NCBI GenBank assembly: GCA_018819085.1
Contig: JAHJQT010000059.1
Coordinates: 1 to 51,482 of the forward strand
Length of the DNA: 51,482 nucleotides
DNA from: Patescibacteria group bacterium
GTDB taxonomy: Bacteria > Patescibacteriota > Minisyncoccia > Portnoybacterales > UBA2143
Reading direction: 5' to 3'
Part shown: piece after piece, positions 14,818 through 41,719 of the stretch
Numbering within the stretch: position 1 is the stretch's first letter
How the letters are laid out: each line of letters starts with the position of its first letter
Program-made: the position numbers and the translations under genes
Notes under the pieces: generated by a model
Database searches by the model: none
Seen by the model: only the letters and a program-made list of their open reading frames with translations
What the model was told of the DNA's origin: nothing

Positions 14818-16170
14818 CTAATCTGACATTAAAGGATCTTTGGCGTTGAAACTGTTAAAAATAAATTTAGCTGAAAAACGACTTCCACCTCGACATTTTT
14901 TAATATACTTACAACCTTTACATTTATTAGGTATATATTTCAAATTTCTCATTCTTTTCATAAAAGGATGATTCCAACAAGCATTAATGTCTAATGGATC
15001 ACCTATATTTTTATTAATATAATAATCTGGCTTTGCAAAACCACGAGGATCAATAGCGTATCTTATATGTCCATCAACTGAAAGAGCGCCATTTGAAACT
15101 TTATTAACTTTTTCAGGGCTATAAGCACAAAAAGGAACAGCATTAACAATATTAAAAACACGACCAGTTGATTCTTGAAACTTAATTAATTTATTAACTA
15201 AATTTTTTAAATCTTTTCTATCCATTGGAAATTTATTTTCTTTCGTAGGAATTGGCCTATATAATTCCCAGTCATCTAAGTCTAATTTCTTAATAACTAA
15301 ATTAAAAATCTTTTCTAGATCATTAATACTTTCTTTAGTAGCTACTGTTCCTGCTCTAATTGTCATTTTACCATAATCCTTAAGAAGATTAATCGCTTTT
15401 ATTTTCTTTTTTAATGAATCTTTATATCCAGTCAAAGAAGATTCTATTTTATTGTTATAGCTTTCGATTGGTAAGAGAATGCTAGAAATATATTCATTTA
15501 ATTTTTTTACTATATTTTTATCACTTATTAATGAACCATTAGTATTTAGACGTATTTTTAATCCATTTGATTTTGCATAATCCATTAATTCCCAAATATC
15601 TTTTCTTAACATTGGCTCGCCACCAGTAAAACGGATTATTTTTACTTTACTTAAAGCAATCGCTTTGATAATTTTTTTAACATAATCTTTACTAAGTCCA
15701 TTAATTTTATCACGACCATCAACAGCAAAAGAATCTTTATTAAAACAAAAAGCACAATTAAAATTACATTTCGTCTCAAGTTCAATCATTATTTCTCTAG
15801 GCAAATCTTCAACTGATTTTATTTGATCCTTATAATATTTAACTTGTGTCTTTAAAATACCACCACAACGTCTTTTATAACGACATTCTTTGCAAATCTT
15901 TAAATGAATTTTATCTTTTGAAAATTCATTTAAAATTAATCTATCTTCTGTTTCATTTATTAAACAATATGGTAGATCCTTGATTTTAATCTGAAAAAAA
16001 ATTTCATAAGTCGTTAATAAATTAACAATTTTGTTAATTTTTTTATAATTAAAACCTTTATCAACAAAAGATAAAAAAAGCTCAATAGATTTTTTATTAT
16101 TAGCTTTTATTTTATTTAAAATCTCAGATAGATTTTTATAATTATTTTCATTTATAATAATTCTTTTCAT
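14818..16170 (-). CDS. Two-module radical SAM/SPASM protein, paralogue of 13447..14811
   Basis: N-terminal LPYC...CKECRYKRRCGG. Core CNFNCAFC and TGGEPMLRKD. C-terminal CKGCKYIKKCRGG. Confidence 0.8.
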   Translation of the reverse strand: MKRIIINENNYKNLSEILNKIKANNKKSIELFLSFVDKGFNYKKINKIVNLLTTYEIFFQIKIKDLPYCLINETEDRLILNEFSKDKIHLKICKECRYKRRCGGILKTQVKYYKDQIKSVEDLPREIMIELETKCNFNCAFCFNKDSFAVDGRDKINGLSKDYVKKIIKAIALSKVKIIRFTGGEPMLRKDIWELMDYAKSNGLKIRLNTNGSLISDKNIVKKLNEYISSILLPIESYNNKIESSLTGYKDSLKKKIKAINLLKDYGKMTIRAGTVATKESINDLEKIFNLVIKKLDLDDWELYRPIPTKENKFPMDRKDLKNLVNKLIKFQESTGRVFNIVNAVPFCAYSPEKVNKVSNGALSVDGHIRYAIDPRGFAKPDYYINKNIGDPLDINACWNHPFMKRMRNLKYIPNKCKGCKYIKKCRGGSRFSAKFIFNSFNAKDPLMSD

Positions 16171-18894: not shown

Positions 18895-20161
18895 TTATTG
18901 TTTTGCTTTTTAAAATTTTAGGAATACGTTGATATGAAATAATATCATCATGATTACTTCTTTTTCTAATTAATTCTAATCTATTATTAATCATTAAAAA
19001 TTCAGCTATAATTGAACGACTACCAAATAATGATAATGCCTGTGTTAGTCCATAAGCTCCGACTCCTTTAATTATGACAAAATCACCAGGTTTTGATTTG
19101 GGTAAAGAGAATTTTGAATTGAAACCACGACCAAAAGCATCAATTGTAGAAGACATTTGTCCACGTATAACTGTAGAATATGTCTTTTGCTTAGATTGTT
19201 GAATGATTTCAATCGCAAAATCATCTTTATTCTCGCCCTCTCTTGATAAGGTTTTTAATAAACAATTAAGCAATCCTTTTACTGTTAAAAAAATAGAATC
19301 TCTTTTTTTTTCTACGTCTATTATTTTAGTAATATATACTCCTGATTTATTGATAAAATATCGTCCTAACTCTAATATTATATTTCTATTATTTAAATTA
19401 TATTTTTTTATTAAATTTTTTAATTTTTTACAAAAAATTAACACATCTAATTCTTTGAGCATACTAGATTCAAAACCACCACCTATGTTTATGATTTTAA
19501 AGTTTATATCAAATTTTTTTTCTAAATTACAGATAATTGAAAAAAGGTTATCTATCCCTTTTATTAAAACATCCGAATTGCAAATACGACTCATGCCATA
19601 AAAATGAACTCCTTTAAGATTAATATTTGAAAAATTATTTGAAAAATTATGTAATATTTTTTCAAAATCTTTTATTTCAATACCAAAATCAGAAACTCTT
19701 GAATATTTATAAATTTTCATTTCTTGATCATTTCCTAAATTTAATCTAATAATTATATCTATTTTTCTATTAAAATTCCTGGCTACTTTATTTAATCTCT
19801 GTAATTCAGAAATAGATTCTATGCTAAATAATCTAACACCTTTATTAAATGAGTGTATAAATTCATTATCAGTCTTAGTAGAACCAGCAAAGAATATTTC
19901 CTTTGATTTAAAATTAGCCTTTTTAACAGCAGATAATTCACCTAAAGAAATTATTTCTGCGCTTAGATTAAAATTATTCATTATTTTTAAAATAGCTAAA
20001 TTAGGATTAGCTTTAGCAGAATAAAAAAGCTCTACATTACTAGGTAGATTATTTTTCAATTTTAAAATTTGACCTTTGATTATATCGTAATCATAAACAT
20101 AAAAAGGCAAATAATCCTTTTTCTCTAGTATTTGTTTATAAGTAATTGGTTTATTTTTCAT
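18887..20161 (-). CDS. PLP-dependent decarboxylase, fold type III (Orn/DAP/Arg decarboxylase family)
   Basis: PFYVYDYD...FYSAKANPN (PLP-lysine context), NIGGGF motif, and family-typical length of 424 aa. Confidence 0.75.
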   Translation of the reverse strand: MKNKPITYKQILEKKDYLPFYVYDYDIIKGQILKLKNNLPSNVELFYSAKANPNLAILKIMNNFNLSAEIISLGELSAVKKANFKSKEIFFAGSTKTDNEFIHSFNKGVRLFSIESISELQRLNKVARNFNRKIDIIIRLNLGNDQEMKIYKYSRVSDFGIEIKDFEKILHNFSNNFSNINLKGVHFYGMSRICNSDVLIKGIDNLFSIICNLEKKFDINFKIINIGGGFESSMLKELDVLIFCKKLKNLIKKYNLNNRNIILELGRYFINKSGVYITKIIDVEKKRDSIFLTVKGLLNCLLKTLSREGENKDDFAIEIIQQSKQKTYSTVIRGQMSSTIDAFGRGFNSKFSLPKSKPGDFVIIKGVGAYGLTQALSLFGSRSIIAEFLMINNRLELIRKRSNHDDIISYQRIPKILKSKTINE

Positions 20162-21392
20162 TTTGAATTTTCTTTTTAAATTTTTTCTCTAATATATTTA
20201 TCTCTTTAAAATTTTTGCCTACGACCATAAATTGACCTTCTCCTAATAATTGCAATAAATCAACGCCTATGGGGAAAATACCTGATTGACCTTTTTCAGT
20301 AATAAGAATATCTGAAAAACTATTAAACATATCTTCAAATGATAAAAAACAATTATTAATACTAAATGATTTCCAAAAAATATCATCAGAAGATTTAAAC
20401 AAGCAATCAGCAATTAAAGCATTAAAAGTGCTTGCATTAAAACGAACATTAGCTTCAGTTGAATATATTTTCTTCTCTTTAGTTATTATATAATCAATTC
20501 CAACAAAACCGTAACATTTTTGTTTCTGAAGATAATTACAAAAATCCAAAGATAAGCTTCTAATTTTTTCCAACAAACGAAGACTTCTATTAAGACGTGA
20601 TGGGAAAATACTTCCTTGATAAGAAACCCTATCTTTTGCTAAAATCTGATCTGAAATAAGAACAGGAATAATCTTTTTTGCTTCTACCCAATATTGAACA
20701 TTAGATGTAAATTCTACATCTGGAATGAATCCCTCTAAGAGAAGGCTTTTTGAATCTGAAAAGCTTTTTTTAACCCGTTCTTCTAATTCTTTTTCAGTAT
20801 TTAAAATAAAATCTCCAAAACCAGCCACAGATCTTTCTCTCTTTAAAATAATCTCTTTAAATCCTTGCTCTTTTAAAAATCTAAAAGCCCTTTTAGTATC
20901 ATCGAGACTACTAACAGTGAGGCCTGATATACAAGGAAATCCTATGTTTTTAATCACTTGGCGATAATTTGATTTATTATTTATCCAATCTAAAAATGAT
21001 GCTTCTCTTATAACCCTGCTATTAATTTTCTGAGCTAAAAACTGGCTGTCATAACTTTCAATATAAGGAACAAGCTGACTTATTTTTTTTTGCTTAATTT
21101 TATTTATTAATGAATCATTATTTAAAACCGCTTTAGTTAAAGAAGGATAATTCAGATAATCTGGAGCATAAAAAATATTCTCAGAATTTATCCTAGCCAG
21201 ACCCAAATTTTTATAATAATCCCATAAAAAATTATCAATTGGATCGCCAAAAACAGCATAATCATTTTCTTTTAATAAAGGCAGGATTCTCTTGTCATAT
21301 AATTTTCTTCTGTCTTCCTTATCTGTATCAGCTTCTTCATGCCTATCATTGATATAAAGTTTTTTTTCACTTGATAAAAATTTATTTAACAT
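20151..21392 (-). CDS. ATP-grasp fold ligase-like protein
   Basis: ILKRERSVAGFGDFIL and GFVGIDYII...STEANVRFNAST resemble ATP-grasp phosphate-binding and Mg-binding segments. This is a weaker motif reading than for the other enzymes. Confidence 0.5.
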   Translation of the reverse strand: MLNKFLSSEKKLYINDRHEEADTDKEDRRKLYDKRILPLLKENDYAVFGDPIDNFLWDYYKNLGLARINSENIFYAPDYLNYPSLTKAVLNNDSLINKIKQKKISQLVPYIESYDSQFLAQKINSRVIREASFLDWINNKSNYRQVIKNIGFPCISGLTVSSLDDTKRAFRFLKEQGFKEIILKRERSVAGFGDFILNTEKELEERVKKSFSDSKSLLLEGFIPDVEFTSNVQYWVEAKKIIPVLISDQILAKDRVSYQGSIFPSRLNRSLRLLEKIRSLSLDFCNYLQKQKCYGFVGIDYIITKEKKIYSTEANVRFNASTFNALIADCLFKSSDDIFWKSFSINNCFLSFEDMFNSFSDILITEKGQSGIFPIGVDLLQLLGEGQFMVVGKNFKEINILEKKFKKKIQNEK

Positions 21393-22488
21393 TATTTTTC
21401 CTTTGATTTAATGCCATTTGTTCTAATTTAAGATTAGAATTTATTTTAATCTCATGGTTTTTTAATAATTCTTTTTTCTCTCGAACAGACAATAATTTAT
21501 ATTTATAATAACCAAGAGATGCAATCATAGCAGCATTATCAGTACAATAAGATTTTTTAACAGGATATTTAAATTCAAGATTTTGTGCTAAACAATCTTT
21601 ACTTAAAATATTTCTTAAATTGTCATTAGCTGAAATTCCTCCAACAAGATGGACTTCTTTAACTTTTTCTTTCTCTGCTAATTTTAATAGACCATTAGAA
21701 ATTAATTCACCCATAGTTTGTTCAAAACTAGCACATAAATCTGAAATAAACTTTTGTGATAAATTTTTTTTCTTTTTTCTTTTTTCAGAAATAGTTTTAC
21801 TAATTATTTTTTCTATTTTTGAAAAATCAAGTTTTGTTATATCAAAACTACCTATTTCTTTTGTTAAATTAAATTTATTTTTATCCCCCTTTTTAGCATA
21901 ATCAGAAATAACAGGACCACTACTAATAGGTCCACCTATTTTTAAAGCATCCGCTAAATAACTATAAACAGCTCCTATCCCTCTAAAGTTTGGCTTATTT
22001 TTTGATTTTCTTTTCATCGCGTCAATTCTAAAAAGCTCTTTAAATTCAAATTTGTTATTTAATATTTTAATAATGCCACTATGTCCACCCGAAGAACTTA
22101 AAACTAAAATAGGAAAATTAAAATCACTTTGCTCTCTTTCTAGCCAATTAGAAAAATAATGAGCCTCTTGATGATAAACTTGGATTAATGGCTTGTTTAA
22201 AACACTAGCCAAAACTTCTGCCGCTGTTAACCCAATTGAAACATTTGAAAAAAAACTACCAAAATTATTAACCGATATCAAAGAAATATCTTCCATTTTA
22301 CACTTTGATTTTGTCAACGCTCTTTTTATAACTGGCCCAATTTGATTTAAATGTGAATCTACTAAATTATATAATTTATCTGATTTCATTACAGTATGTT
22401 CGTTCACATTAGACAAAACAAATCTACCGTCTTCAACAACAGCTACGCAAACATCATGTAAGATTGTATCTATACCTAAAATTTTCAT
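21382..22488 (-). CDS. Kae1/TsaD (ASKHA-fold, N6-threonylcarbamoyl/carbamoyl transferase) family protein, divergent
   Basis: ILGIDT start, HQEAH metal-binding His pair, SSGGHSG, VGGISAN and CTDNAAMIA motifs in the TsaD order. The usual SCDET segment is replaced. Confidence 0.7.
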   Translation of the reverse strand: MKILGIDTILHDVCVAVVEDGRFVLSNVNEHTVMKSDKLYNLVDSHLNQIGPVIKRALTKSKCKMEDISLISVNNFGSFFSNVSIGLTAAEVLASVLNKPLIQVYHQEAHYFSNWLEREQSDFNFPILVLSSSGGHSGIIKILNNKFEFKELFRIDAMKRKSKNKPNFRGIGAVYSYLADALKIGGPISSGPVISDYAKKGDKNKFNLTKEIGSFDITKLDFSKIEKIISKTISEKRKKKKNLSQKFISDLCASFEQTMGELISNGLLKLAEKEKVKEVHLVGGISANDNLRNILSKDCLAQNLEFKYPVKKSYCTDNAAMIASLGYYKYKLLSVREKKELLKNHEIKINSNLKLEQMALNQRKNNVK

Positions 22489-22494
22489 AAAGAA

Positions 22495-24105
22495 TTATTT
22501 TTCAATTAAATAATCACCAATAGCCAAATAATCCATACTGGAATCATAAAAAGTTTTTAATGCATCTTTAGGACTACAAATAATTGGCTCATCAGCTAAA
22601 TTATAACTTGTGTTTAATAATGCCGGGATGCCTGTTATTTTTTTAAATTCACTAATTAACTTCCAATACTTAAGATTATTCTTTTTATTTACTGTTTGCA
22701 AACGAACTGTATTGTCTACATGAACCGTAGCTAATAAATCTTTTATTTTATTTGGCTTAATATCAAAAGCTAAAATCATAAAAGGTGATTTATAATAATC
22801 TTTAACATATTTTGAGGCATATTCTTCTAATATAGAAGGAGCAAAAGGTCTCCAAGATTCTCTTTTTTTAATACTATTAATCATATCTTTTATCTTTACC
22901 AACGAAGGATTAGCTAATATAGAACGATTACCCAATGCCCTAGGACCAACTTCCATTCTTCCTTGAAACCAGCCAATTATTTTGTTCTGTGCAATTTTTT
23001 CAGCTGTTTCTTTAAAAATATTATTTGAAAAATGATATTTATTAATTTTATATTTCCCTATAGCTTTTTCTATTTCTTGATTATTAAATTCTGGACCCCA
23101 ATAGACATGGTCAAAAATAAAATCTGGACTCTTGTTTGTTTTTTTCACATGAACATATACTGCCGCGCCTAAAGCACTTCCAGTATCATTAGAAGCTGGC
23201 TGAATATAAATATCATGCACATATTTAGATTTTAACAGTATCCCATTCATAGCACAATTAAGTGCTACTCCACCAGATAAACATAAATTACGTGAGCCTG
23301 TTTGATTATATAAATATTTAACAATTTTTAAACCAGCTTTTTCTAAAACAAATTGAACGGTTGCGGCTAAATCTTTATGTTTTTGCGTAATTTTATCAAA
23401 ACAATTTCTTTTTTTTATAGTTGCTAAAAACTTTTTCTTTTTCTCGTAATCAATTTTGGGAATTGGTTTAGCATTCCAATCTATAAAGTTAAATTTTTCC
23501 AAACAGGGTTTACCATAGCTTGATAATCCCATTGTTTTGCCTTCTTGACTATGACCTTTAAAACCTAATAAATTAGTAATCTCTTCATAAAGACAACCCC
23601 AACTTTCTTGATGATTTATTCTATGGAAAATATCTAAATTTAAACCATTCCCATAGCCAATTAAGCCTGATTCTGATTCTCCTGCTTTGTCTAATGAAAT
23701 AATATTTGATTCTTTAAATCCTGATAAATAAAAAGAAGAAGAAATATGTGCTATATGATGATTAACATTTATTACTCTTGGATCATAGAAATCAAACGGC
23801 TGATTCCATTCAAATGATTTGAGTCGAGGTGTTTTTTGTTTAATTTCGTGATTATTAAAATCTATAGACTGATTTATAGCATGATATTTATCATCAAATC
23901 CTACAGCAATATAATCTAAATCTTTCATGCTTAACCCAGCATATTCTAGACAATATTTGGTTGCCTGACAAGCTCCTATGCGTGGCGCATGCTTTTTTCT
24001 AATAAATCGCTCTTCTTCAGCAAATGCCACTAATTTACCATCAATTAACAAACAAGCTGCATTGTTCCAAGAATAGCATGAATGAGTAATACCTAATATT
24101 TTCAT
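22495..24105 (-). CDS. NodU/CmcH-family carbamoyltransferase
   Basis: MKILGITHSCYSWNNAACLLIDGKLVAFAEEERFIRKKH is a family-typical N-terminus. LSGGVALNC motif. 536 aa. Confidence 0.85.
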   Translation of the reverse strand: MKILGITHSCYSWNNAACLLIDGKLVAFAEEERFIRKKHAPRIGACQATKYCLEYAGLSMKDLDYIAVGFDDKYHAINQSIDFNNHEIKQKTPRLKSFEWNQPFDFYDPRVINVNHHIAHISSSFYLSGFKESNIISLDKAGESESGLIGYGNGLNLDIFHRINHQESWGCLYEEITNLLGFKGHSQEGKTMGLSSYGKPCLEKFNFIDWNAKPIPKIDYEKKKKFLATIKKRNCFDKITQKHKDLAATVQFVLEKAGLKIVKYLYNQTGSRNLCLSGGVALNCAMNGILLKSKYVHDIYIQPASNDTGSALGAAVYVHVKKTNKSPDFIFDHVYWGPEFNNQEIEKAIGKYKINKYHFSNNIFKETAEKIAQNKIIGWFQGRMEVGPRALGNRSILANPSLVKIKDMINSIKKRESWRPFAPSILEEYASKYVKDYYKSPFMILAFDIKPNKIKDLLATVHVDNTVRLQTVNKKNNLKYWKLISEFKKITGIPALLNTSYNLADEPIICSPKDALKTFYDSSMDYLAIGDYLIEK

Positions 24106-24791
24106 TTATTTAATTTTTCTTTATTTAAATAATCTTCAACTAATTTAGCTATTTCTTCACTTAAAACACCTGATTGAATCTCACCTTCTCTGATTAATTT
24201 CACTTTATTATTAACTATTTCAATAACTGTTGAAGGTCGACGTTCAGGTAATTTTCCTGCATCCAAGACTATATCAGGTTTTACTTCATGTCCAAAAATC
24301 CCTCTAAAATACTCCATTAACTCTTCTACAGAATAAATATTTTTCAATTCAGAAATATTAGCACTTGTACCAATAACCGGTGTTCTATGAAATTTTGATA
24401 AAGTAGAAGTTACTTTATTAAAAGGAACTCGAAAACCAAGTGTTTTATATCCTAAGTTTAAAAACTCTGGAACTGTTTTATTATTTCTTGGCACTGCGAA
24501 AGTAAATGGTTCTTCAGGAAATTTTTCGGCAATTTTTTTAATTAAAGGATTAAATTTGCCATATTTTGCAATATCGTCAAGACAATAAAGCCCAAGATTA
24601 AATGCTTTTTTTCTATCTCTGTGTTTTGCTTTTTGTACTTTTTTTATTGACTTTAAATTAAAAGCATCACCCACCATTGTGTAAACAGCATCGCCAGGCA
24701 CAATAGCTATTTTACCTTTATTAATCGCATCAGCAACTTTTTTAACAGCTTTAGGATCTGGATTTTTATAATCTATTTTTACAATTTTCAT
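24102..24791 (-). CDS. YrdC/Sua5 (TsaC)-family L-threonylcarbamoyladenylate-synthase-like protein
   Basis: IAIVPGDAVYTMVGDA (PTDTVYGL-type) and IGTSANISE (SAN motif). Single YrdC domain of 229 aa. 4-nt overlap with the carbamoyltransferase gene. Confidence 0.75.
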   Translation of the reverse strand: MKIVKIDYKNPDPKAVKKVADAINKGKIAIVPGDAVYTMVGDAFNLKSIKKVQKAKHRDRKKAFNLGLYCLDDIAKYGKFNPLIKKIAEKFPEEPFTFAVPRNNKTVPEFLNLGYKTLGFRVPFNKVTSTLSKFHRTPVIGTSANISELKNIYSVEELMEYFRGIFGHEVKPDIVLDAGKLPERRPSTVIEIVNNKVKLIREGEIQSGVLSEEIAKLVEDYLNKEKLNK

Positions 24792-24793: not shown

Positions 24794-25744
24794 TTATTTT
24801 TTAACTTTTAATAAAGGAAAGTTATATTTATCAAGATAATCATTTTCTATACCACTACAACAATTATTATATTCACAGTTTACGCAATCATCGTTTTTAA
24901 TAAAACATTCTTTAAAATCTCTAATCTGTATTTTTTTTAATTGAAAATCCTTACTAACTTTTAATAATCTTCTTTGTCTTCTTTTTTCGATAGCTGAATC
25001 TTGAAATCTAGGCAAATTATCAATGTAACAAAGAGGAAAATTCCAAAATATTATATTAACACCCAATAAGTTAGCTGTTTTAACTGCTTTTTGTATATAT
25101 TCTTTTATTTTTTTAAAATCAGTTGGTAATGATTTCTTAAGTAAAGATTTTAATGTATCGCCAATATATATTAATCTAAATTCTATATTAATCTTTTTAT
25201 AATCATATTTCTTAAATAATTTATGTAAATATATAATTAAATCAGATAATGATTCTAAGTTATTTTTATTAATAACTAAAATAAGCATTATTGGCAATTT
25301 ATATTTTAAAAAATTTTCTAAGCCAGACATTCTCTTTATTTCGATTTCACTAATAGGTAAATTATTAATAGAGCCAATAATTTTATTATTTCTATCAGAT
25401 GGAAAATAATTTAATGTCTTCTCTAAAAAACTCTTATTATTAAAATGCAAAAGATTTGTTATAATTCTGAATTCTATCTTTTCTTTGTAAAAATAATCAA
25501 GAATTTTAAAAAAATTCTTATGAATAGTAGGCTCTCCTCCTGTAATAATAACATAATCAAGATTAAAATTATTTCTTAAATAATTAAAATTATCTTTTAT
25601 TTCTTTCAATGAAAGATCTTTTAATCCTTTTTTTGTATATTTTCTTTCAATACAAAAATTGCAATCATCATTACAGTTAGCAGTTATTTTAAACAATGCA
25701 GCAACATTTTCTTTTTGGTATTTTATAATCTTTTTTTTATTCAT
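24794..25744 (-). CDS. Radical SAM protein (short family variant, C-terminal 4-Cys motif)
   Basis: CNDDCNFC triad and TGGEPTIHKNF motif. C-terminal FPLC...CVNCEYNNCCSG. Confidence 0.75.
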   Translation of the reverse strand: MNKKKIIKYQKENVAALFKITANCNDDCNFCIERKYTKKGLKDLSLKEIKDNFNYLRNNFNLDYVIITGGEPTIHKNFFKILDYFYKEKIEFRIITNLLHFNNKSFLEKTLNYFPSDRNNKIIGSINNLPISEIEIKRMSGLENFLKYKLPIMLILVINKNNLESLSDLIIYLHKLFKKYDYKKINIEFRLIYIGDTLKSLLKKSLPTDFKKIKEYIQKAVKTANLLGVNIIFWNFPLCYIDNLPRFQDSAIEKRRQRRLLKVSKDFQLKKIQIRDFKECFIKNDDCVNCEYNNCCSGIENDYLDKYNFPLLKVKK

Positions 25745-25750: not shown

Positions 25751-27313
25751 TCACCAAATATAATTTTTAACTTTTGAAGAATTCATTAGCGGATCATTAG
25801 CCTTATAACTACCATTAAAAAAATATGCTGAATACCTATCTCCTCCTTTACATTTTTCTAAAAAAGCACATTTCTTACATTCTTTTGGTATATTATTATA
25901 ATTTCTTAATGATTTCATGAAAGAATGATTCCAGCAAGCATTAATATCTAATGGGTCTCCGATATTTTTTTCAATATAATACATCGGTTTGGCAAAACCA
26001 CGTGGATCAATAACAAATCTTTCATGACCATCAACTGATTTAGCCCCTCCACAAACAGCATTTATTTTAATAGGATCATAAGCACAAAAAGGAACAGCAT
26101 TAATTATATGAACTTTTAAAGAATAATTATTCCTAACTATATCTTTTTTAATTTTAATTAATTTTTCTATTAAAAGTGGAATTTCTTTCTTTCCCCAAAT
26201 TATTTTTTCTCCAGGATTGGGTATCACCCGATTAATCATCCATTTATTAATTTTTAACTCTTTGAACAGTTTGTAAAATTTTTCTGAATTCTTAATATTC
26301 TCCATAGTTGCAACTGTACTAACATTAACAATTTTTACTCCTGCTTTTCTGAACCATTTTATAGCTCTTATTTTCTTTTCAAAAGAATTTTCAAATCCAG
26401 TTATTTTCTCATCTTCTTTAGAATTACAAGTATGCATTGAAAAAAGAATATAATCTAAATACTTAGCTATTTCTTTTACTTGTTTATAATCCTTAATTAA
26501 AGAACCATTTGTATTTAATTTAACCTGCAATCCTTTTTCTTTAGCATATTTTATTAAACTAAAAATATTTTTCCTTAATATTGGCTCTCCACCAGTGAAT
26601 CTTACTGCTGATACGCCTGTTTTTTTTAAATTGTCAATTATTTTTTTAATATACAGACTGCTTAGCTCCTTGCCTAATCTGTCTTTTTTAGCAAAACTAA
26701 CACGATTAAAACAAAAATCACATTTAAAATTACATTTATGAGTTACTTCAATTATAACTTCTCGAGGTAATAATTTTGGTTTAATTTTACTTTTGTTTAA
26801 ATTTTTAAGATACCCTTTTAAAATGCCATTGCATTTTTGATTATAAGCGCATAATTTACACTTTTTCAATTTCACAAAATCTTTAAAATTATTACTTTTT
26901 AAAATAAGGCCTTCAGGTTCAGGAATTAAACAATAAGGAAGACCTTCAACTTTAATTATCAAATCAAATAAAAAGACATAACGAGCTTTTGAGATGTAAG
27001 AAGCTACAACATCTAAAGAATCTATTAATTTATCTTTGCTTGGATTAATTAGGTTAAACTGTACTTTTTTGATTCTAAATTTTTTTGCTATTTTTAAAAT
27101 ACCATTTAGTCTAAAATAATTAGAATTTTTGACTTGATTCCCAGTATAAATATCTACACTAAGAACAATATTATCTTTTTTACCTTCTTTAATTAATTCT
27201 TCTATTTTCTGAATAGACTTTTTAAACGTAAAATTATTCTTAACAAAACGCTCATGGATTTCTGAACGATGACCGTATAAATAAATTTTAGAATAATTAT
27301 TTCTTTTTATCAT
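25751..27313 (-). CDS. Two-module radical SAM/SPASM protein (longest of three paralogues)
   Basis: The N-terminal ~180 aa lack a CX3CX2C triad but carry LPYC...CKLCAYNQKCNG. The core has CNFKCDFC and TGGEPILRKN. C-terminal CKKCAFLEKCKGG. The C-terminal half is close to 14818..16170 (DPRGFAKP.YYI.KNIGDPLDINACWNH). Confidence 0.8.
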   Translation of the reverse strand: MIKRNNYSKIYLYGHRSEIHERFVKNNFTFKKSIQKIEELIKEGKKDNIVLSVDIYTGNQVKNSNYFRLNGILKIAKKFRIKKVQFNLINPSKDKLIDSLDVVASYISKARYVFLFDLIIKVEGLPYCLIPEPEGLILKSNNFKDFVKLKKCKLCAYNQKCNGILKGYLKNLNKSKIKPKLLPREVIIEVTHKCNFKCDFCFNRVSFAKKDRLGKELSSLYIKKIIDNLKKTGVSAVRFTGGEPILRKNIFSLIKYAKEKGLQVKLNTNGSLIKDYKQVKEIAKYLDYILFSMHTCNSKEDEKITGFENSFEKKIRAIKWFRKAGVKIVNVSTVATMENIKNSEKFYKLFKELKINKWMINRVIPNPGEKIIWGKKEIPLLIEKLIKIKKDIVRNNYSLKVHIINAVPFCAYDPIKINAVCGGAKSVDGHERFVIDPRGFAKPMYYIEKNIGDPLDINACWNHSFMKSLRNYNNIPKECKKCAFLEKCKGGDRYSAYFFNGSYKANDPLMNSSKVKNYIW

Positions 27314-27319: not shown

Positions 27320-28426
27320 TTATTTTATAATTCTTTTAATAAAATTTATAATATTATTTTTATTACTTGAGAATCCATTATATCTTTCTGAAAAAAGTTT
27401 TATTAAAACATTAATAAGTTTATTAATAATTTTGAACTCGTCTTTTTTGTTAACGCCCAAATAAACAAATTGACCATGTAAATTTTTAATAAATCTTTTT
27501 AGAATCCTGCCTCTACTAGAATTATCTAATTCCTGTCCATCAAAAATTATAAAACTTATTGTTCTGATATGATCGATAATAATATTTAGGTTCTCTTCAA
27601 ATAAATTAATTGAATTATCGTTTATAGATTTAAAATAATCTAATAAAATCTTTTTCAAAGGAAATATTAAAGAAATATCATAAATATTATCCTTATTTTC
27701 TAAAGCCATTAAAAGTCTCTCGAAGCCGAAACCCTCTAAAACAGCTTGATTTCTTGTTCTTTTAAGCTGACCAGTGAATTTGAATTTATAATTAACATGA
27801 GAACCAATTTCAATGTATTTATTTCCAATCTTATAATATATTTCACAACCGGTTGATCCTGGATTATCAATTATACGAGAATAAAATAAATTTCTCTGTC
27901 CAATAGTCCTAAAAATTCTATCTTTACCCAAATGATTAATATAAGTATTATAAAAAATTTCATCTTCTTCTTCTGTTAATTTAATACCTTCAGCCTCACA
28001 AGAATGTAATATAGTCACAAGAATTTTGTTTTTATCTAGTCCAAGAACATTGAACATAAGATTACATAACAATTCAACTGATTTTTCTTTAGATAAATTT
28101 TCAGCTGCTCCAACAGAGCCAAACACTAATAATTCGAAAAAACTAAGATGACGGCTACTAATACCTACATTCTTCGCGTCATTCACTCTTATGCTTCTAT
28201 CTGGCAAAATATAGAAATTATCAATTGGCAAATGAGATTCTTTTTTAAAAACAATAATATCATCAATAATATGATGCGCAGCACTAGGAGAATAAGTATA
28301 ATTAAATCTTGGCTGAATTAAACCAGAAGAAAATTCATTCCTAAAATTTTCTTTTTCTAAAAAATTTTTTATTTTTATCAATAATTTATTATGTTTTAGA
28401 ACTATTTTATCTATATTCATAATCAA
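27320..28426 (-). CDS. Alanyl-tRNA synthetase catalytic-core homologue (class IIc), truncated stand-alone form
   Basis: Co-linear matches to AlaRS core motifs. RVNDAKNVGISSRHLSFFELLVFGSVG matches R.GGKHNDLENVG.T.RHHTFFEMLGNFSFG. STGCEIYY...YIEIGSHVNYKF matches GPCTEIFYD...IEIWNIVFMQF. LEGFGFERLLMALENKDNIYDISLIF matches DTGMGLERIAAVLQ...NYDIDLF. At 368 aa there is no room for tRNA-recognition, editing or C-Ala domains. Confidence 0.6.
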   Translation of the reverse strand: MIMNIDKIVLKHNKLLIKIKNFLEKENFRNEFSSGLIQPRFNYTYSPSAAHHIIDDIIVFKKESHLPIDNFYILPDRSIRVNDAKNVGISSRHLSFFELLVFGSVGAAENLSKEKSVELLCNLMFNVLGLDKNKILVTILHSCEAEGIKLTEEEDEIFYNTYINHLGKDRIFRTIGQRNLFYSRIIDNPGSTGCEIYYKIGNKYIEIGSHVNYKFKFTGQLKRTRNQAVLEGFGFERLLMALENKDNIYDISLIFPLKKILLDYFKSINDNSINLFEENLNIIIDHIRTISFIIFDGQELDNSSRGRILKRFIKNLHGQFVYLGVNKKDEFKIINKLINVLIKLFSERYNGFSSNKNNIINFIKRIIK

Positions 28427-29709: not shown

Positions 29710-30807
29710 CTATAAAATTTTACTTTCTGGAGATCTACGACAGCATCTTTGACAGACATAAAACAATCCATTATTTTTTATTTCATTGAAAAGTTTTTTT
29801 GCTCTCTGACCATTTAATATTTCTTCTAATGGCATTTTTTTTATATTACCAAGATAATAAAAAGAAATACTACATCCAGGGAATACATCTCCATTTTGAT
29901 CTATCCTTATTTGTTTAAAAACATTAGGACAACTATTAATTTTATGGCAACCATCAGAAAACCATTTTTTATACTTTTTGTCTGAATCAAAATCAGGAAA
30001 AAATAATACACGCATTCTAGATTTTTCAGATAATTTTCTTTTTATTAAATTAATTTTTCTTACAACTTCATTTATTTCTTTTTTATTAAGCTTGCCTAAT
30101 TTATTATCTAATCCCTCTATTAATTTTGCTCGCTCTTCATAAACATTAAATCTTTCATGAAATTCATTAACGCATTTATCTATAATTAAAGAATTTGACC
30201 ATTGTGCCAACGAAAAAGAAAGTACATCGCATTTAACATCTTCAGCTAAAGACAAAACACTATCAAAAGATCCTACATTTAATTTATTTATTACAGTATT
30301 AATAGCTAATAAGGGAAGGTAAAAATTAATATTTTCTTTCATTATTTGTAATTTTTTAATGCTTTCTAATGTTCTATTAAAGTTTCCATTACCTCTATTG
30401 GCATCGTGATCAACAGAATTTCCATCTATGGAAAACATTAAAGCAGAAGTTTGATTTTTAATTAATTCCGAAAAAATCTTTTTGTCATTATGTGTTCCAT
30501 TTGTAAATATCATTAATTTAACTTTTTGTTTTTTTGCATGTTTCAATATATTAAAAATATTAGGATTTAAAAATGGCTCCCCACCAGATAAATTAATCGT
30601 AATATCATTATAATCTTCAAATCGCTTCAATTGTTCTACCAGCTTTTTAAAAAGTTCAAAAGTGAAATTACAACTCTTATTATTAAAAAAAGATATCTTT
30701 TTTTCTTTAATGCCTGTTAAAAAACATGTCTTACATTTTAAATTACATAAGTTTGTTGTTTCAATAGTAATTTTTTCTAAATAATTATTCAAAAATTTTA
30801 ATTTCAT
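29710..30807 (-). CDS. Radical SAM/SPASM-domain protein (possible HxsC counterpart)
   Basis: CNLKCKTC triad and SGGEPFLNPN motif. C-terminal Cys-rich region CPNVFKQIRIDQNGDVFPGC...CQRCC. The HxsC idea rests only on size and context. Confidence 0.75.
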   Translation of the reverse strand: MKLKFLNNYLEKITIETTNLCNLKCKTCFLTGIKEKKISFFNNKSCNFTFELFKKLVEQLKRFEDYNDITINLSGGEPFLNPNIFNILKHAKKQKVKLMIFTNGTHNDKKIFSELIKNQTSALMFSIDGNSVDHDANRGNGNFNRTLESIKKLQIMKENINFYLPLLAINTVINKLNVGSFDSVLSLAEDVKCDVLSFSLAQWSNSLIIDKCVNEFHERFNVYEERAKLIEGLDNKLGKLNKKEINEVVRKINLIKRKLSEKSRMRVLFFPDFDSDKKYKKWFSDGCHKINSCPNVFKQIRIDQNGDVFPGCSISFYYLGNIKKMPLEEILNGQRAKKLFNEIKNNGLFYVCQRCCRRSPESKIL

Positions 30808-31872: not shown

Positions 31873-31910
31873 ATAAAATCATTATATCAAATTATTTACT
31901 TTATTTACAT

Positions 31911-31942
31911 ACAAAAACAACCTATCAATAGGTTGTTTTTTG
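31911..31942 (-). terminator. Intrinsic-terminator-like hairpin between the repeat-protein operon and the enzyme operon
   Basis: Arms aaaaacaacctat (31913-31925) and ataggttgttttt (31928-31940) are perfectly complementary. They are flanked by A/T runs, so a U-tract follows on either strand. The hairpin lies 22 nt downstream of the stop of 31962..32954. Confidence 0.55.
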
Positions 31943-31961
31943 AAAATAAATATTAAAAAAA

Positions 31962-35777: not shown

Positions 35778-36044
35778 TTATGACCTCATTAAAAAAAAGA
35801 CGTAATTACAAAACTCGTCTTTAATTATTTTTTCAACGCTTTTGTCAATATTGCTCAATTCTACCTGAATATATTTTTTTGTTTTCTTAAAGCTAAAATC
35901 AGCTAAATTATTATATTCTTTTATAGCTGATTTTATTGATTTAAGATTATATAAGTTTTTATTAAAACTAATCAGTATTCTCTCTTTTTTGTTACGCTGT
36001 TTTCCTGTTTTGTTTTTTGATTGTTTTTTCTGTTTTTTCACCAT
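35778..36044 (-). CDS. Small HxsD-like domain protein (second copy)
   Basis: The ORF track gives a TTG start at 36068. I prefer the ATG at 36042-36044 (MVKKQKK...). The C-terminal part ILISFNKNLYNLKSIKSAIKEY...IIKDEFCNYVFFLMR is co-linear with the upstream HxsD-like ORF. It overlaps that ORF by ~50 nt. Confidence 0.4.
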   Translation of the reverse strand: MVKKQKKQSKNKTGKQRNKKERILISFNKNLYNLKSIKSAIKEYNNLADFSFKKTKKYIQVELSNIDKSVEKIIKDEFCNYVFFLMRS

Positions 36045-41713: not shown

Positions 41714-41719
41714 ATTTTA

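What the first reader, a model, noticed from the sequence alone, without database searches (positions are those of the whole stretch)
21382..24791. YrdC-like + Kae1-like + NodU-type carbamoyltransferase encoded as separate, overlapping genes inside the rSAM block (second Kae1-like at 30814..31872)
Seen in sequence: 24102..24791 has YrdC/Sua5 motifs and 22495..24105 has a NodU/CmcH carbamoyltransferase N-terminus. Both 21382..22488 and 30814..31872 have TsaD/Kae1 motifs, including the HxxxH metal site, but a divergent N-terminal segment. The first three genes overlap each other or neighbours by 4-11 nt.

Established knowledge: YrdC-like and Kae1-like modules together generate and transfer acyl-adenylate-activated carbamoyl or threonylcarbamoyl groups. 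Examples are t6A synthesis, TobZ-type O-carbamoyltransferases and HypF.

Inference: the cluster encodes a dedicated carbamoyl/threonylcarbamoyl-type transfer step. The target could be the many Ser hydroxyls or His imidazoles of the repeat, or a small-molecule intermediate. Such chemistry has not been described for a peptide substrate.
Basis: partly seen in the sequence, partly recalled or inferred. Interest (0 to 1): 0.78.

Follow-up and report, generated by a model that had tools for sequence, protein, structure and literature searches.

The report
Repurposed t6A-type enzymes in Hxs cluster
An uncultured candidate-phyla-radiation bacterium carries extra, diverged copies of the two universal tRNA-t6A enzymes (TsaC/YrdC and TsaD/Kae1) that have lost the residues needed to recognise tRNA and threonine, are locked into a radical-SAM cluster for a His/Ser/Gly-repeat protein, and so probably attach a carbamoyl-type group to something other than tRNA.

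Summary
The four ORFs are a TsaC-type YrdC (24102-24791), a complete TobZ/NodU-type carbamoyltransferase (22495-24105) and two TsaD/Kae1-like proteins (21382-22488, 30814-31872). They lie in a tightly packed minus-strand operon with 14 radical-SAM genes, downstream of hxsD, hxsB and hxsA4.

They are not housekeeping t6A genes. Both Kae1-likes and the YrdC form separate clades, far from canonical Patescibacteria TsaD and TsaC. The Kae1-likes keep the metal and adenylate core but lack every experimentally defined tRNA/A37 determinant. The YrdC keeps the ATP tetrad, but the threonine-binding Thr33 is Gly in 68 of 72 clade members.

It is HxsC-like rSAM, YrdC, Kae1-like-1 and an amino-acid-ligase-type ATP-grasp. 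A second pairing is Kae1-like-2 with an rSAM-SPASM enzyme. The NodU-like gene was found only in this lineage.

HxsA4 orthologues accompany the cluster in four diverged genomes, but several compact versions show none within 10 kb, so the acceptor (repeat protein or small molecule) is unresolved. Carbamoylation of peptides is already known (HypF/HypE, crocagin, StdF). I found no report of a stand-alone TsaC/TsaD-derived pair for a non-tRNA target.

The parts
24102..24791 (-). Stand-alone TsaC-type YrdC, 'G-type' (229 aa). Presumed (amino-acyl)carbamoyl- or N-carboxy-adenylate synthase.
   Evidence: Pfam PF01300 3.4e-36. TIGR00057 scores 122.5 against a cut-off of 123.2. K56xR58, S143xN145, S187 and R201 are kept, but Thr33 is Gly, Thr35 is Ala and Gly38 is Thr. 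Its own clade has at least 46% identity, then a gap to 31%. The AF2 model is closest to T. maritima TsaC2/Sua5, TM 0.74.
21382..22488 (-). Kae1/TsaD-like transferase 1 (368 aa, clade 1).
   Evidence: Pfam TsaD 6e-35. TIGR03723 scores 165 against a cut-off of 296. The clade is P0001-P0041. Metal ligands are kept and tRNA determinants lost. AF2 pLDDT is 90 and the best PDB match is E. coli TsaD, TM 0.78-0.87.
20151..21392 (-). ATP-grasp ligase (413 aa). It overlaps Kae1-like-1 by 11 nt and is the constant partner in the module.
   Evidence: Pfam ATP-grasp_3. It lies directly downstream of Kae1-like-1 in L002, L004, L007, L008/9, L012, L013, L014, L093, L095, L097, L099 and L100. The profile's best PDB hits are the L-amino-acid ligase LdmS (7R8P, 6.8e-9) and an ATP-grasp peptide ligase (8YND).
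22495..24105 (-). Complete TobZ/NodU-type carbamoyltransferase (536 aa). Lineage-specific addition.
   Evidence: Carbam_trans_N plus Carbam_trans_C. TobZ matches at 1.9e-86. There are 22,265 representative homologues, the best at 46% identity. 'WN' replaces the catalytic 'HD', as in its nearest relatives. The gene is absent from every related locus examined from other lineages.
24794..25744 (-). HxsC-like radical-SAM enzyme (316 aa) immediately upstream of YrdC. Conserved module member.
   Evidence: The best NCBIfam hit is HxsC, below cut-off. Orthologues lie next to the module in L002, L005, L007, L008, L013, L092, L093, L096 and L100.
25751..27313 (-). Radical-SAM enzyme (520 aa). Conserved module member.
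   Evidence: Orthologues at 51-72% identity occur in L002, L004, L008/9, L012, L013, L093, L095 and L100.
14818..16170 (-). Radical-SAM enzyme (450 aa). Frequently conserved with the module.
30814..31872 (-). Kae1/TsaD-like transferase 2 (352 aa, clade 2). First gene of the enzyme operon.
   Evidence: Pfam TsaD 1.6e-28. The clade is P0121-P0132, with 100% NJ bootstrap. It is 33% identical to Kae1-like-1. The same tRNA determinants are lost.
29710..30807 (-). rSAM-SPASM enzyme (365 aa). Constant downstream partner of Kae1-like-2.
27320..28426 (-). AlaRS catalytic-core-only protein (368 aa). Another adenylate-forming enzyme.
   Evidence: Pfam tRNA-synt_2c 6e-27. It matches the PDB AlaRS catalytic fragment. 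It is conserved in L172 and L173.
32966..33406 (-). HxsA4 His-Xaa-Ser repeat protein: leader, TM segment, then (SSH/GSH)n ending in SSY. Candidate acceptor.
   Evidence: NF038313 scores 108.8 against a cut-off of 55. Tandem 9-nt repeat, 28.6 copies. Orthologues occur in L013, L172 and L173.
31962..32954 (-). 330-aa membrane-anchored Cys-rich protein of unknown family, always next to hxsA4.
   Evidence: No Pfam or NCBIfam hit. Homologues lie next to HxsA4 in L013, L172 and L173.
34322..35770 (-). HxsB radical-SAM/SPASM maturase.
   Evidence: TIGR03978 scores 531.7 against a cut-off of 370.
35778..36429 (-). HxsD (35992-36429) and the overlapping HxsD-like ORF (35778-36068).
   Evidence: TIGR03976 scores 63.5 against 50, and NF038315 scores 65.5 against 41.
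31873..31961 (-). 89-nt intergenic region with a 12-bp hairpin followed by a U-run, between the precursor-side genes and the enzyme operon.
   Evidence: MFE -16.6 kcal/mol, z = -2.8. The consensus terminator scan did not call it.

Best explanation
The window is an expanded His-Xaa-Ser type-4 (HxsA4) maturation cluster of a Patescibacteria/CPR bacterium, inserted in a type IV pilus locus. Within it sits a neofunctionalised copy of the two-step t6A chemistry.

Step 1 (inferred from retained motifs). The G-type YrdC keeps the ATP-binding tetrad, but its amino-acid pocket is altered (Thr33 to Gly, Thr35 to Ala, position 67 to Gly). It would use ATP, and probably CO2/bicarbonate plus an amine substrate other than free L-threonine, to make an acyl-adenylate of the carbamoyl / N-carboxy type.

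Step 2 (inferred). Kae1-like-1 keeps the His-His-Asp metal site and the adenylate-binding ASKHA core, but has lost the A37 pocket and the anticodon-loop trough. It would transfer that group to a non-tRNA nucleophile.

Step 3 (inferred). The translationally coupled ATP-grasp, which is closest to L-amino-acid and peptide ligases, would make an amide bond on the same moiety, either before or after transfer.

Acceptor. The most likely acceptor is the Ser/His-rich HxsA4 repeat or an intermediate derived from it by the flanking HxsC-like rSAM enzymes. I put this at about 0.55; a small molecule is the main alternative.

Other components. Kae1-like-2 is a second transferase of the same radiation and works with its own rSAM-SPASM partner. 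The NodU-like enzyme is a self-contained, carbamoyl-phosphate-dependent carbamoyltransferase added only in this lineage.

Shown here: domain identities, clade separation, synteny, and loss or retention of specific residues. Inferred: all chemistry, and the acceptor.
For: Separate clades
- Kae1-like-1: homologues drop from 244 bits or more (at least 39% identity) to 196 bits or less for canonical CPR TsaD.
- Kae1-like-2: same pattern.
- The two clades plus P0158 group together in 60 of 60 NJ bootstraps when rooted on T. maritima TsaD. Clade 2 scored 100% and clade 1 scored 67%.
- YrdC: clade members score 206 bits or more, then a gap to 98 bits.

tRNA determinants (defined by the TmTsaBD-tRNA cryo-EM structure and mutagenesis, PMC13276492)
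- Cys10 is Leu or Phe in 54 of 54 members.
- The GGVVPE hairpin tip is deleted in 54 of 54.
- Glu162 is Ala or another residue in 54 of 54.
- Lys166 survives in 3 of 54, and Arg169 is mostly lost.
- Metal ligands H109, H113 and D296 are kept in 54 of 54.
- Only 37 (clade 1) and 32 (clade 2) of the 96 columns that are at least 90% conserved in canonical TsaD are retained.

YrdC residues
- KxR/SxN and the equivalents of S181 and R195 are invariant.
- Thr33 is Gly in 68 of 72 clade members, against Thr in 44 of 46 canonical sequences. Residue roles are from PMC10321239.

Synteny
- YrdC, Kae1-like-1 and ATP-grasp are adjacent in L002, L004, L007, L008/9, L012, L013, L014, L093, L095, L097, L099 and L100.
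- All 14 assessable metagenome loci with a clade YrdC have an adjacent Kae1-like gene.
- Controls: 0 of 64 canonical TsaD loci and 0 of 27 canonical TsaC loci have such neighbours.

Link to Hxs
- HxsD, HxsB and HxsA4 all score above NCBIfam cut-offs.
- HxsA4 orthologues with the same leader and the S(S/A)Y end occur in L013, L172 and L173.
- At least 8 rSAM genes have HxsC or HxsC4 as their best hit.

Other support
- The ATP-grasp profile is closest to LdmS and a peptide ligase.
- Kae1-like-1 folds like TsaD (TM 0.78-0.87) and resembles TobZ much less (TM 0.5).
- Clade 1 is rare: 3 loci among 185,579 GTDB species representatives.
Against: - There is no biochemical evidence; every catalytic step is inferred.
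- No HxS-repeat ORF was found within the roughly 7.8-10 kb fetched upstream in L002, L004, L007, L008/9 or L093. L008/9 is a compact, transposase-flanked version without hxsB. The acceptor need not be HxsA4.
- The accessory enzymes are typical of small-molecule pathways. In the window: PLP decarboxylase and SDR. Elsewhere: AsnB-like, AMP-binding, SHMT, RidA and glycosyltransferases.
- No RRE/PqqD-type peptide-binding domain was detected.
- The altered YrdC pocket could mean loss of activity, as in the YciO paralogue, and not a new specificity.
- The presence of canonical tsaD and tsaC elsewhere in the same genome was not demonstrated.
- The trees are simple NJ trees built on a sampled set.
Confidence: 0.6

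Rival explanations
1. Same dedicated adenylate-transfer module, but the acceptor is a small molecule (an amino-acid-, nucleoside- or cofactor-like metabolite built by the rSAM enzymes) and not the HxsA4 protein. On this reading hxsA4/hxsB are merely neighbours, or use the product.
For: - The core (HxsC-like rSAM, YrdC, Kae1-like-1, ATP-grasp, large rSAM) occurs without any HxS-repeat ORF or hxsB in the fetched flanks of L004, L007, L008/9, L012 and L093.
- The partners vary and are typical of metabolite pathways: PLP decarboxylase, SDR, AsnB-like, AMP-binding, SHMT, RidA, glycosyltransferases and TRAM-less MiaB-like rSAM.
- The ATP-grasp is closest to free L-amino-acid ligases.
- No RRE domain was detected.
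Against: - hxsA4, hxsB and hxsD are contiguous with the enzyme operon in four diverged genomes.
- The rSAM next to YrdC and at least 7 others are HxsC-family paralogues. In the characterised system HxsC acts on the HxS motif (PMC13128918).
- Flanks were limited to 10 kb while the clusters span about 30 kb.
Confidence: 0.28
2. Housekeeping t6A genes (a minimal TsaC + TsaD system, Qri7-like) that merely sit in the operon ('operon packing').
For: - Family-level Pfam hits.
- YrdC scores 122.5 against a cut-off of 123.2 for the TC-AMP synthase model, and PGAP names its orthologues TC-AMP synthase.
- No canonical tsaD, tsaC, tsaB or tsaE lies in the 51 kb window.
- Distant Kae1-like-2 relatives (L011) lie beside housekeeping genes and are paired with a T-type YrdC that retains PTETVYG.
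Against: - All mapped tRNA/A37 determinants are lost and Thr33 is lost.
- TsaD equivalog scores are 165 and 123 against a cut-off of 296.
- The clades are separate.
- There are two to three paralogues per cluster.
- Canonical TsaD and TsaC exist in other Patescibacteria, including Parcubacteria-labelled MAGs, and never have these neighbours.
- Clade 1 is present in only 3 of 185,579 GTDB species representatives.
Confidence: 0.04
3. A nucleic-acid modification system acting on a non-canonical RNA/DNA or free nucleotide target (a t6A-like or ms2t6A-like adenine derivative), not on a peptide.
For: - Both enzyme families derive from tRNA-modification enzymes.
- MiaB/MtaB-like (UPF0004 + rSAM) genes occur in L002, L007 and L008.
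- An AlaRS-core protein is in the window.
- NodU-type enzymes are known to carbamoylate 5hmC in phage DNA (title and abstract of PMC8670742).
Against: - The adenine-stacking Cys10, the ribose-contacting Glu162 and the basic backbone-binding residues are gone.
- No RNA gene or Rfam family lies within the cluster.
- There is no PADLOC match beyond generic rSAM similarity.
- The MiaB-like genes lack the length expected for a TRAM domain and are absent from the window.
Confidence: 0.06

Closest known systems
Bacterial t6A pathway: TsaC/Sua5 (TC-AMP synthase) plus TsaD (with TsaB and TsaE)
   Same: - The same two protein families are encoded as separate polypeptides.
- The folds match: TM 0.78-0.87 to TsaD and 0.74 to TsaC2/Sua5.
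- The ATP tetrad KxR/SxN and the His-His-Asp metal site are intact.
- A two-step adenylate-then-transfer logic is expected.
   Different: - The tRNA/A37 determinants (Cys10, GGVVPE, Leu82, Glu162, Lys166, Arg169) are lost.
- Thr33 of the threonine site is lost.
- Scores fall below the equivalog cut-offs.
- No tsaB or tsaE lies nearby.
- The pair is always adjacent to each other and to rSAM and ATP-grasp genes. Canonical tsaC and tsaD are not adjacent in the control loci.
TobZ / GdmN / NodU O-carbamoyltransferases (fused Kae1-like + YrdC-like)
   Same: - Non-tRNA use of the YrdC + Kae1 chemistry in secondary metabolism.
- ORF 22495-24105 is a true full-length member of this family.
- Kae1-like-1 and -2 carry a His at the position of the TobZ H14 / GdmN H27 general base (PMC9633730).
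   Different: - The conserved pair here is unfused and derives from the TsaD and TsaC lineages, not from the Carbam_trans families (TM to TobZ is only 0.5).
- The window's NodU-like enzyme and its nearest relatives have 'WN' in place of the catalytic 'HD'.
- The His argument is weak, because this position also varies among archaeal Kae1 (Glu in M. jannaschii).
Carbamoylation of peptides and proteins: HypF to HypE-Cys; CgnI (crocagin); StdF (Lys to homocitrulline in a RiPP)
   Same: Kae1-like/YrdC-like chemistry applied to a ribosomally made substrate (PMC9654439, PMC13174530). A NodU-like gene sits inside a RiPP-like cluster.
   Different: - Those enzymes are single fused proteins that use carbamoyl phosphate.
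- Here a TsaC-type enzyme with an altered amino-acid pocket is paired with stand-alone TsaD-like transferases and an ATP-grasp ligase.
- No modification has been observed experimentally.
HXS antiphage system (hxsD-hxsB-hxsC-hxsA; Nat Commun 2026, PMC13128918)
   Same: HxsA-type repeat protein, HxsB and HxsD are present above the family cut-offs, along with HxsC-family rSAM paralogues.
   Different: - The canonical system has four genes, and 99.7% of systems are in Pseudomonadota. Its HxsA has five repeats and a peptidoglycan-binding domain.
- Here there are about 30 genes in a CPR bacterium and dozens of (G/S)SH repeats.
- No rSAM gene reaches the HxsC cut-off.
- The block is embedded in a type IV pilus locus.
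- The paper does not mention any carbamoyl, Kae1 or YrdC component.

Membership tests
TsaD/Kae1/Qri7 t6A transferase | His-x-x-x-His ... Asp metal site and the ASKHA nucleotide motifs (SGGH, GGxxxN, DNAxM) | tested here: met
   H109, H113 and D296 (Tm numbering) are kept in 54 of 54 clade members. SGG/AH, GG(V/I)SAN and DNAAM are kept.
TsaD/Kae1/Qri7 t6A transferase | A37 pocket (Cys10 of E-S/T-SCD, Val42, Leu82) and Glu162 | tested here: not met
   Cys10 is Leu/Phe in 54 of 54. Glu162 is Ala or another residue in 54 of 54. Leu82 is variable. Residue roles and mutant activities are from PMC13276492.
TsaD/Kae1/Qri7 t6A transferase | GGVVPE tip of the alpha1-alpha2 hairpin and the basic residues Lys166 and Arg169 that hold the anticodon loop | tested here: not met
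   There is a 5-residue deletion, and Gly40, Gly41, Pro44 and Glu45 are absent in 54 of 54. Lys166 is kept in 3 of 54 and Arg169 is mostly lost.
TsaD/Kae1/Qri7 t6A transferase | Score above the curated equivalog cut-off (TIGR03723, 296.1 bits) | tested here: not met
   165.1 bits (Kae1-like-1) and 122.7 bits (Kae1-like-2).
TsaD/Kae1/Qri7 t6A transferase | Overall fold | tested here: met
   AF2 model with pLDDT 90. The top 38 PDB matches are all TsaD/Kae1/Qri7 family structures (including the TsaN fusion, 8ide); the best are E. coli and Salmonella TsaD, TM 0.76-0.87.
TsaD/Kae1/Qri7 t6A transferase | Being the organism's t6A enzyme (no other tsaD; partners tsaB and tsaE present) | not testable with these tools
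   Only one 53-kb contig is available. No tsaB or tsaE lies in the window. Attempts to link other tsaD or tsaC genes to the same MAGs failed.
TsaC/Sua5 TC-AMP synthase | KxR / SxN ATP-binding tetrad | tested here: met
   K56, R58, S143 and N145 are invariant in 72 of 72 clade members.
TsaC/Sua5 TC-AMP synthase | Threonine-binding residues T33 / S181 / R195 (Pa-Sua5 numbering) | tested here: not met
   The S181 and R195 equivalents are kept, but T33 is Gly in 68 of 72, against Thr in 44 of 46 canonical sequences. PTxTVYG becomes PGDAVYT. Residue roles are from PMC10321239.
TsaC/Sua5 TC-AMP synthase | Score above the curated cut-off (TIGR00057, 123.2 bits) | tested here: inconclusive
   122.5 bits, which is 0.7 bit below the cut-off. 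PGAP names orthologues TC-AMP synthase.
TobZ/NodU/CmcH carbamoyltransferase (ORF 22495-24105) | Carbam_trans_N plus Carbam_trans_C architecture with the metal site and the YrdC-like GPRALGxRS / NTSxN motifs | tested here: met
   Both Pfam domains are full length. The alignment to TobZ shows HHxAH, D, GPRALGNRS and NTSYN.
TobZ/NodU/CmcH carbamoyltransferase (ORF 22495-24105) | N-terminal general-base His (TobZ H14, GdmN H27) | tested here: not met
   'SWNNAA' replaces 'FHDASA'. HD is present in 88 of 152 aligned homologues and WN in 11, including the nearest relatives. The H27N mutant is inactive in GdmN (PMC9633730).
NodU proper (NF041651) | Equivalog cut-off of 1000 bits | tested here: not met
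   165.6 bits. It is a family member, not NodU itself.
His-Xaa-Ser (HXS) system | HxsA repeat protein, HxsB and HxsD above the curated cut-offs | tested here: met
   HxsA4 108.8 against 55, HxsB 531.7 against 370, HxsD 63.5 against 50, HxsD-like 65.5 against 41.
His-Xaa-Ser (HXS) system | A bona fide HxsC (or HxsC4) partner rSAM | tested here: inconclusive
   At least 8 rSAM genes have HxsC or HxsC4 as their best hit, but all fall below cut-off (best 175 against 268, and 170 against 500).
His-Xaa-Ser (HXS) system | Compact four-gene hxsDBCA organisation; antiphage function | tested here: not met
   The block has about 30 co-directional genes. Function is not testable. PADLOC gave no specific hit.

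The most novel reading that the evidence does not exclude
TsaC/TsaD-derived enzymes that have abandoned tRNA install an (amino-acyl)carbamoyl/ureido-type modification on a ribosomally made protein. That protein would be the collagen-like (Gly-Ser-His)n HxsA4 fibre encoded inside the type IV pilus locus of CPR bacteria. A new donor amino acid or dipeptide would be supplied by the coupled ATP-grasp ligase. This would be a new class of post-translational modification and the first stand-alone non-tRNA use of the universal t6A enzyme pair.
Probability: 0.3. Interest if true: 0.85.

Novelty: new variant of a known kind. Interest (0 to 1): 0.7.

Why it matters
TsaC/Sua5 and TsaD/Kae1/Qri7 are among the few universal protein families, and their unfused forms are known only for making t6A on tRNA. 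The known non-tRNA relatives (TobZ/NodU, HypF) are ancient fusions that use carbamoyl phosphate.

Here there is a recent, traceable radiation of unfused TsaC-like and TsaD-like paralogues. They keep the catalytic core but have shed the tRNA and threonine determinants, and they are fixed next to radical-SAM and amino-acid-ligase genes. That would show how this chemistry is recruited for new acceptors, and it points to an undescribed modification in HxsA-type systems.

It is also practically useful. Annotation pipelines already name these YrdC orthologues 'threonylcarbamoyl-AMP synthase'. The motif differences found here (GIDT[IT][LF]H against GIETSCDET, absence of GGVVPE, and PGDAVYT against PTxTVYG) give a simple rule for telling them apart.

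It also gives concrete handles for studying the little-understood, greatly expanded Hxs clusters of CPR bacteria and their link to type IV pili.

Tried and rejected
1. Direct test for a second, canonical tsaD/tsaC in the same genome.
- I compared NCBI accession ranges of canonical hits with those of the Portnoybacteria MAG (MBL71549xx) and the ABIC36 MAG. No match was found, and many hits carry no accession.
- A GTDB scan with a clade-1 profile returned 3 clade-1 loci and 77 canonical TsaD loci, all from other genomes.
- The question stays open.

2. Search for a shared small precursor peptide among short ORFs of the related loci. Nothing was conserved. HxS repeats occur only in the window, L013, L172 and L173.

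3. 'His11 equals the TobZ-type general base, therefore an O-nucleophile.' I kept this only as a weak hint. The position also varies in archaeal Kae1 (Glu in M. jannaschii; from memory, His in P. abyssi, not verified).

4. The idea that the NodU-like enzyme is defective because it lacks His14. Rejected as stated, because its nearest relatives form a natural 'WN' subgroup.

5. PADLOC gave only generic rSAM similarity to pVip. Rfam and ARAGORN found only two tRNA-Ser genes outside the cluster.

6. The first NJ run, with the NodU outgroup, failed because the distances were saturated. I repeated it without that outgroup.

7. Literature searches for TsaC/TsaD paralogues in rSAM or RiPP clusters found nothing relevant.

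8. The consensus terminator scan did not call the hairpin upstream of Kae1-like-2. Folding supports it only moderately.

Full report
**1. What is in the sequence**

The window is a 25% G+C metagenomic contig (ENA ERZ27247117 k141_30529). Almost all of its genes are on the minus strand.

The four ORFs of the finding are real:
- 24102-24791 is a Sua5/YciO/YrdC-family protein (PF01300, 3.4e-36).
- 22495-24105 carries both Carbam_trans_N (5.9e-48) and Carbam_trans_C (1.1e-68). It is therefore a complete TobZ/NodU-type carbamoyltransferase with its own YrdC-like domain, and it matches the TobZ structures at 1.9e-86.
- 21382-22488 and 30814-31872 are TsaD/Kae1-family proteins (6e-35 and 1.6e-28). 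They are 33% identical to each other.

YrdC/NodU overlap by 4 nt and Kae1-like-1/ATP-grasp by 11 nt. The 19 genes between 31872 and 12334 are separated by at most 18 nt or overlap.

**2. Surroundings**

Upstream lie HxsD (35992-36429), an HxsD-like ORF, HxsB (34322-35770; 531.7 bits against a cut-off of 370), a DUF4440-like lipoprotein, and the repeat protein HxsA4 (32966-33406; NF038313, 108.8 against 55).

HxsA4 consists of a conserved leader, a TM segment and then (SSH/GSH)n. It is encoded by 28.6 copies of a 9-nt unit.

A 330-aa protein of unknown family follows. After an 89-nt spacer containing a 12-bp hairpin, the enzyme operon starts with Kae1-like-2.

The block contains 14 radical-SAM genes. 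At least eight of them have HxsC or HxsC4 as their best NCBIfam hit, though all fall below cut-off. It also encodes an AlaRS catalytic-core protein, a PLP decarboxylase, an SDR and an ATP-grasp.

The whole block sits inside a type IV pilus locus.

The canonical HXS system is a four-gene antiphage system found almost only in Pseudomonadota. The paper describing it mentions no carbamoyl, Kae1 or YrdC component (PMC13128918).

**3. Are these the housekeeping t6A genes?**

Four lines of evidence say no.

*(a) Clades.*
- Homologues of Kae1-like-1 fall from 244 bits or more (39-99% identity, 364-373 aa) to 196 bits or less at the first canonical Patescibacteria TsaD.
- Kae1-like-2 shows the same break.
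- In NJ trees rooted on T. maritima TsaD, clade 2 has 100% bootstrap and clade 1 has 67%. The two together, plus one further divergent sequence, have 100%.
- The YrdC clade (72 sequences) drops from 206 to 98 bits.

*(b) Curated cut-offs.*
- TsaD equivalog: 165 and 123 bits against 296.
- TC-AMP synthase: 122.5 bits against 123.2.

*(c) Function-defining residues.* The 2026 cryo-EM and mutagenesis study of T. maritima TsaBD bound to tRNA defines three groups of residues (PMC13276492):
- the A37 pocket (Cys10, Val42, Leu82 and the SGGH turn) together with Glu162;
- the GGVVPE hairpin tip, which forms the trough for the U32-U36-A38 triple;
- Lys166 and Arg169, which hold the loop backbone.

These motifs are conserved in TsaD, Kae1, OSGEP and Qri7, and mutating them is strongly deleterious.

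In all 54 sampled members of the two clades:
- Cys10 is Leu or Phe.
- The hairpin tip is shortened by five residues, with Gly40, Gly41, Pro44 and Glu45 gone.
- Glu162 is replaced.
- Lys166 survives in only 3, and Arg169 is mostly lost.
- The DDAxGEAFDK segment is replaced by an 8-11-residue insertion.
- By contrast, the metal ligands H109, H113 and D296 and the SGGH, GGxSAN and DNAAM motifs are intact.

Overall, only 37 (clade 1) and 32 (clade 2) of the 96 columns that are at least 90% conserved in canonical TsaD are retained.

For the YrdC, the ATP tetrad K56xR58/S143xN145 and the equivalents of S181 and R195 are invariant. The threonine-binding Thr33 (PMC10321239) is Gly in 68 of 72 members, against Thr in 44 of 46 canonical sequences. 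PTxTVYG becomes PGDAVYT.

*(d) Synteny with controls.*
- YrdC, Kae1-like-1 and ATP-grasp are adjacent in every related locus with enough sequence.
- All 14 assessable metagenome loci with a clade YrdC have an adjacent Kae1-like gene.
- None of 64 canonical TsaD loci of at least 8 kb has a YrdC, ATP-grasp or window-type rSAM homologue nearby. None of 27 canonical TsaC loci has a TsaD-like neighbour.
- Clade 1 is rare: 3 loci among 185,579 GTDB species representatives.

What I could not do is show a canonical tsaD or tsaC in the very same genome.

**4. What the conserved unit is**

Comparison of loci from Kae1-like-1 relatives at 39-83% identity shows a recurring core:
- an HxsC-like rSAM (about 315 aa);
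- the G-type YrdC, which remains 60-81% identical even where Kae1-like-1 has dropped to about 41-45%;
- Kae1-like-1;
- the ATP-grasp;
- a 520-605-aa rSAM, and often a 345-450-aa rSAM.

The NodU-like gene, Kae1-like-2, the AlaRS-like gene, the PLP decarboxylase and the SDR are variable. NodU-like was found in no other lineage.

Kae1-like-2 has its own constant partner, an rSAM-SPASM enzyme. In distant relatives it is preceded by a 'T-type' YrdC that retains PTETVYG. There it is followed by an AMMECR1 fusion, YcaO and a nitroreductase-type gene.

A third divergent Kae1-like gene occurs in L013 and L095.

The ATP-grasp profile is closest to the L-amino-acid ligase LdmS (7R8P, 6.8e-9) and to an ATP-grasp peptide ligase (8YND).

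Structure predictions place Kae1-like-1 with bacterial TsaD (TM 0.78-0.87) and well away from TobZ (TM 0.5). They place the YrdC with TsaC2/Sua5 (TM 0.74).

**5. Link to HxsA4**

L172 and L173 (Kae1-like-2 at 71% and 59% identity) repeat the window's architecture. The order is type IV pilus genes, HxsD, HxsD-like, HxsB, (DUF4440-like in L172), HxsA4, a 290-330-aa protein, Kae1-like-2, rSAM-SPASM, a HemN-like rSAM and an AlaRS-like gene. In L173 the AlaRS-like gene lies before Kae1-like-2 and the HemN-like gene is on the opposite strand.

L013 (Kae1-like-1 at 45% identity) has an HxsA4 C-terminus, the 286-aa homologue and the full module.

All HxsA4 orthologues that include the leader share it. 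All end in S(S/A)Y.

On the other hand, L002, L004, L007, L008/9 and L093 show no HxS-repeat ORF in the 7.8-10 kb fetched upstream. L008/9 is a compact version flanked by transposase genes.

**6. Most likely mechanism**

All of the chemistry below is inferred.

- The G-type YrdC makes an adenylate of the carbamoyl / N-carboxy type. Its donor is not free threonine, because the pocket is enlarged by three substitutions to Gly or Ala.
- Kae1-like-1 transfers that group to a non-tRNA nucleophile.
- The coupled ligase-type ATP-grasp adds or prepares an amino-acid moiety.
- The acceptor is most probably the HxsA4 repeat, or an rSAM-generated derivative of it.
- Kae1-like-2 performs a second, related transfer together with its rSAM-SPASM partner.
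- The NodU-like enzyme adds a plain carbamoyl group from carbamoyl phosphate. It belongs to a natural subgroup with 'WN' in place of the general-base 'HD' (base role from PMC9633730).

The main rival keeps this chemistry but makes the acceptor a small molecule.

**7. Comparison with what is known, and novelty**

YrdC-like plus Kae1-like chemistry on non-tRNA targets is known for TobZ/GdmN/NodU and for HypF. It is also known on ribosomal peptides or proteins for HypE, crocagin and StdF (PMC9654439, PMC13174530).

What I found no report of is a radiation of unfused, TsaC- and TsaD-derived paralogues that have lost the tRNA and threonine determinants and are fixed in rSAM/Hxs clusters. I rate this as a new variant of a known kind.

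**8. Limits**

- Trees are NJ trees on sampled sequences.
- Homologue searches are word-indexed and capped.
- Flanks are limited to 10 kb.
- Taxonomic labels of the MAGs are coarse. The nearest named relative is a Candidatus Portnoybacteria MAG. GTDB hits are labelled Saccharibacteria, and in one case Planctomycetia, which may reflect mis-binning.
- There are no experimental data.

Noticed in passing
window 37255-45985 and 468-5287: The whole Hxs/rSAM block (about 5.3-36.4 kb) is inserted, co-directionally, in a type IV pilus locus. On one side are PilM, PilO, PilB, a pilin, a response regulator, PilT, PilC, a pilin and the prepilin peptidase. On the other are PKD/Ig proteins and pseudopilins. 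The same order (T4P, then HxsD, HxsB, HxsA4, Kae1-like-2) recurs in L172 and L173.
   Followed up: partly
window 32966-33406; L013 6-167; L172 8309-8943; L173 7546-7791: HxsA4 has a conserved leader (KKDIKAFLTSEEGRINKKSVAK, then a TM segment, then DPxSAAC) and always ends in S(S/A)Y. Its long (Gly-Ser-His)n stretch is a Gly-X-Y repeat that hits the Pfam collagen model (1.4e-8). It might therefore form a collagen-like fibre. Gene callers miss it in L172 and L173, where the repeat also contains assembly gaps.
   Followed up: partly
window 31873-31961: A 12-bp hairpin followed by a U-run (MFE -16.6 kcal/mol, z = -2.8) lies between the hxsA4/330-aa gene pair and the enzyme operon. A -10-like GATATAAT follows it. 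This resembles the attenuator often seen after RiPP precursor genes. The consensus terminator scan did not call it.
   Followed up: partly
window 6572-7498, 7501-8424, 9825-10694, 10691-11659, 12564-13460, 16935-17918, 17911-18894, 24794-25744: At least eight radical-SAM paralogues have HxsC or HxsC4 as their best NCBIfam match, but all are far below cut-off. This looks like a local radiation of HxsC-type enzymes in a single operon.
   Followed up: no
window 27320-28426; L172 13438-14535; L173 8849-9982: A 365-377-aa protein consists only of the AlaRS class-II catalytic core (it matches residues 73-331 of the Aquifex AlaRS fragment). It is conserved in the cluster and may be an alanine-adenylating or tRNA-dependent tailoring enzyme.
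   Followed up: no
window 31962-32954; L013 188-1048; L172 8976-9911; L173 7826-8707: A membrane-anchored, Cys-rich protein of 286-330 aa with no family match is always encoded directly after hxsA4.
   Followed up: no
L010 3770-13316; L011 7422-14580: A different conserved cassette occurs in other CPR contigs. It runs T-type YrdC, Kae1-like-2 relative, rSAM-SPASM, (small secreted protein, rSAM), a 641-648-aa AMMECR1 fusion, YcaO and a nitroreductase-type protein. It is unclear whether this pair still makes t6A.
   Followed up: partly
L002 6745-7806; L007 5489-6688; L008 20438-21122: Short MiaB/MtaB-like (UPF0004 + rSAM) proteins, apparently too short to include a TRAM domain, occur in related clusters but not in the window. 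MtaB normally methylthiolates t6A.
   Followed up: no
window 48222-48308 and 48332-48422: Two tandem tRNA-Ser genes (anticodons GCT and TGA) lie on the plus strand just outside the cluster.
   Followed up: no
L012 (CAYVYZ010000080.1): A 5.5-kb contig carries the CPR-type YrdC, Kae1-like-1, ATP-grasp and rSAM module, yet it is binned in a MAG labelled 'uncultured Planctomycetia'. This is probably a binning error or a case of horizontal transfer.
   Followed up: no
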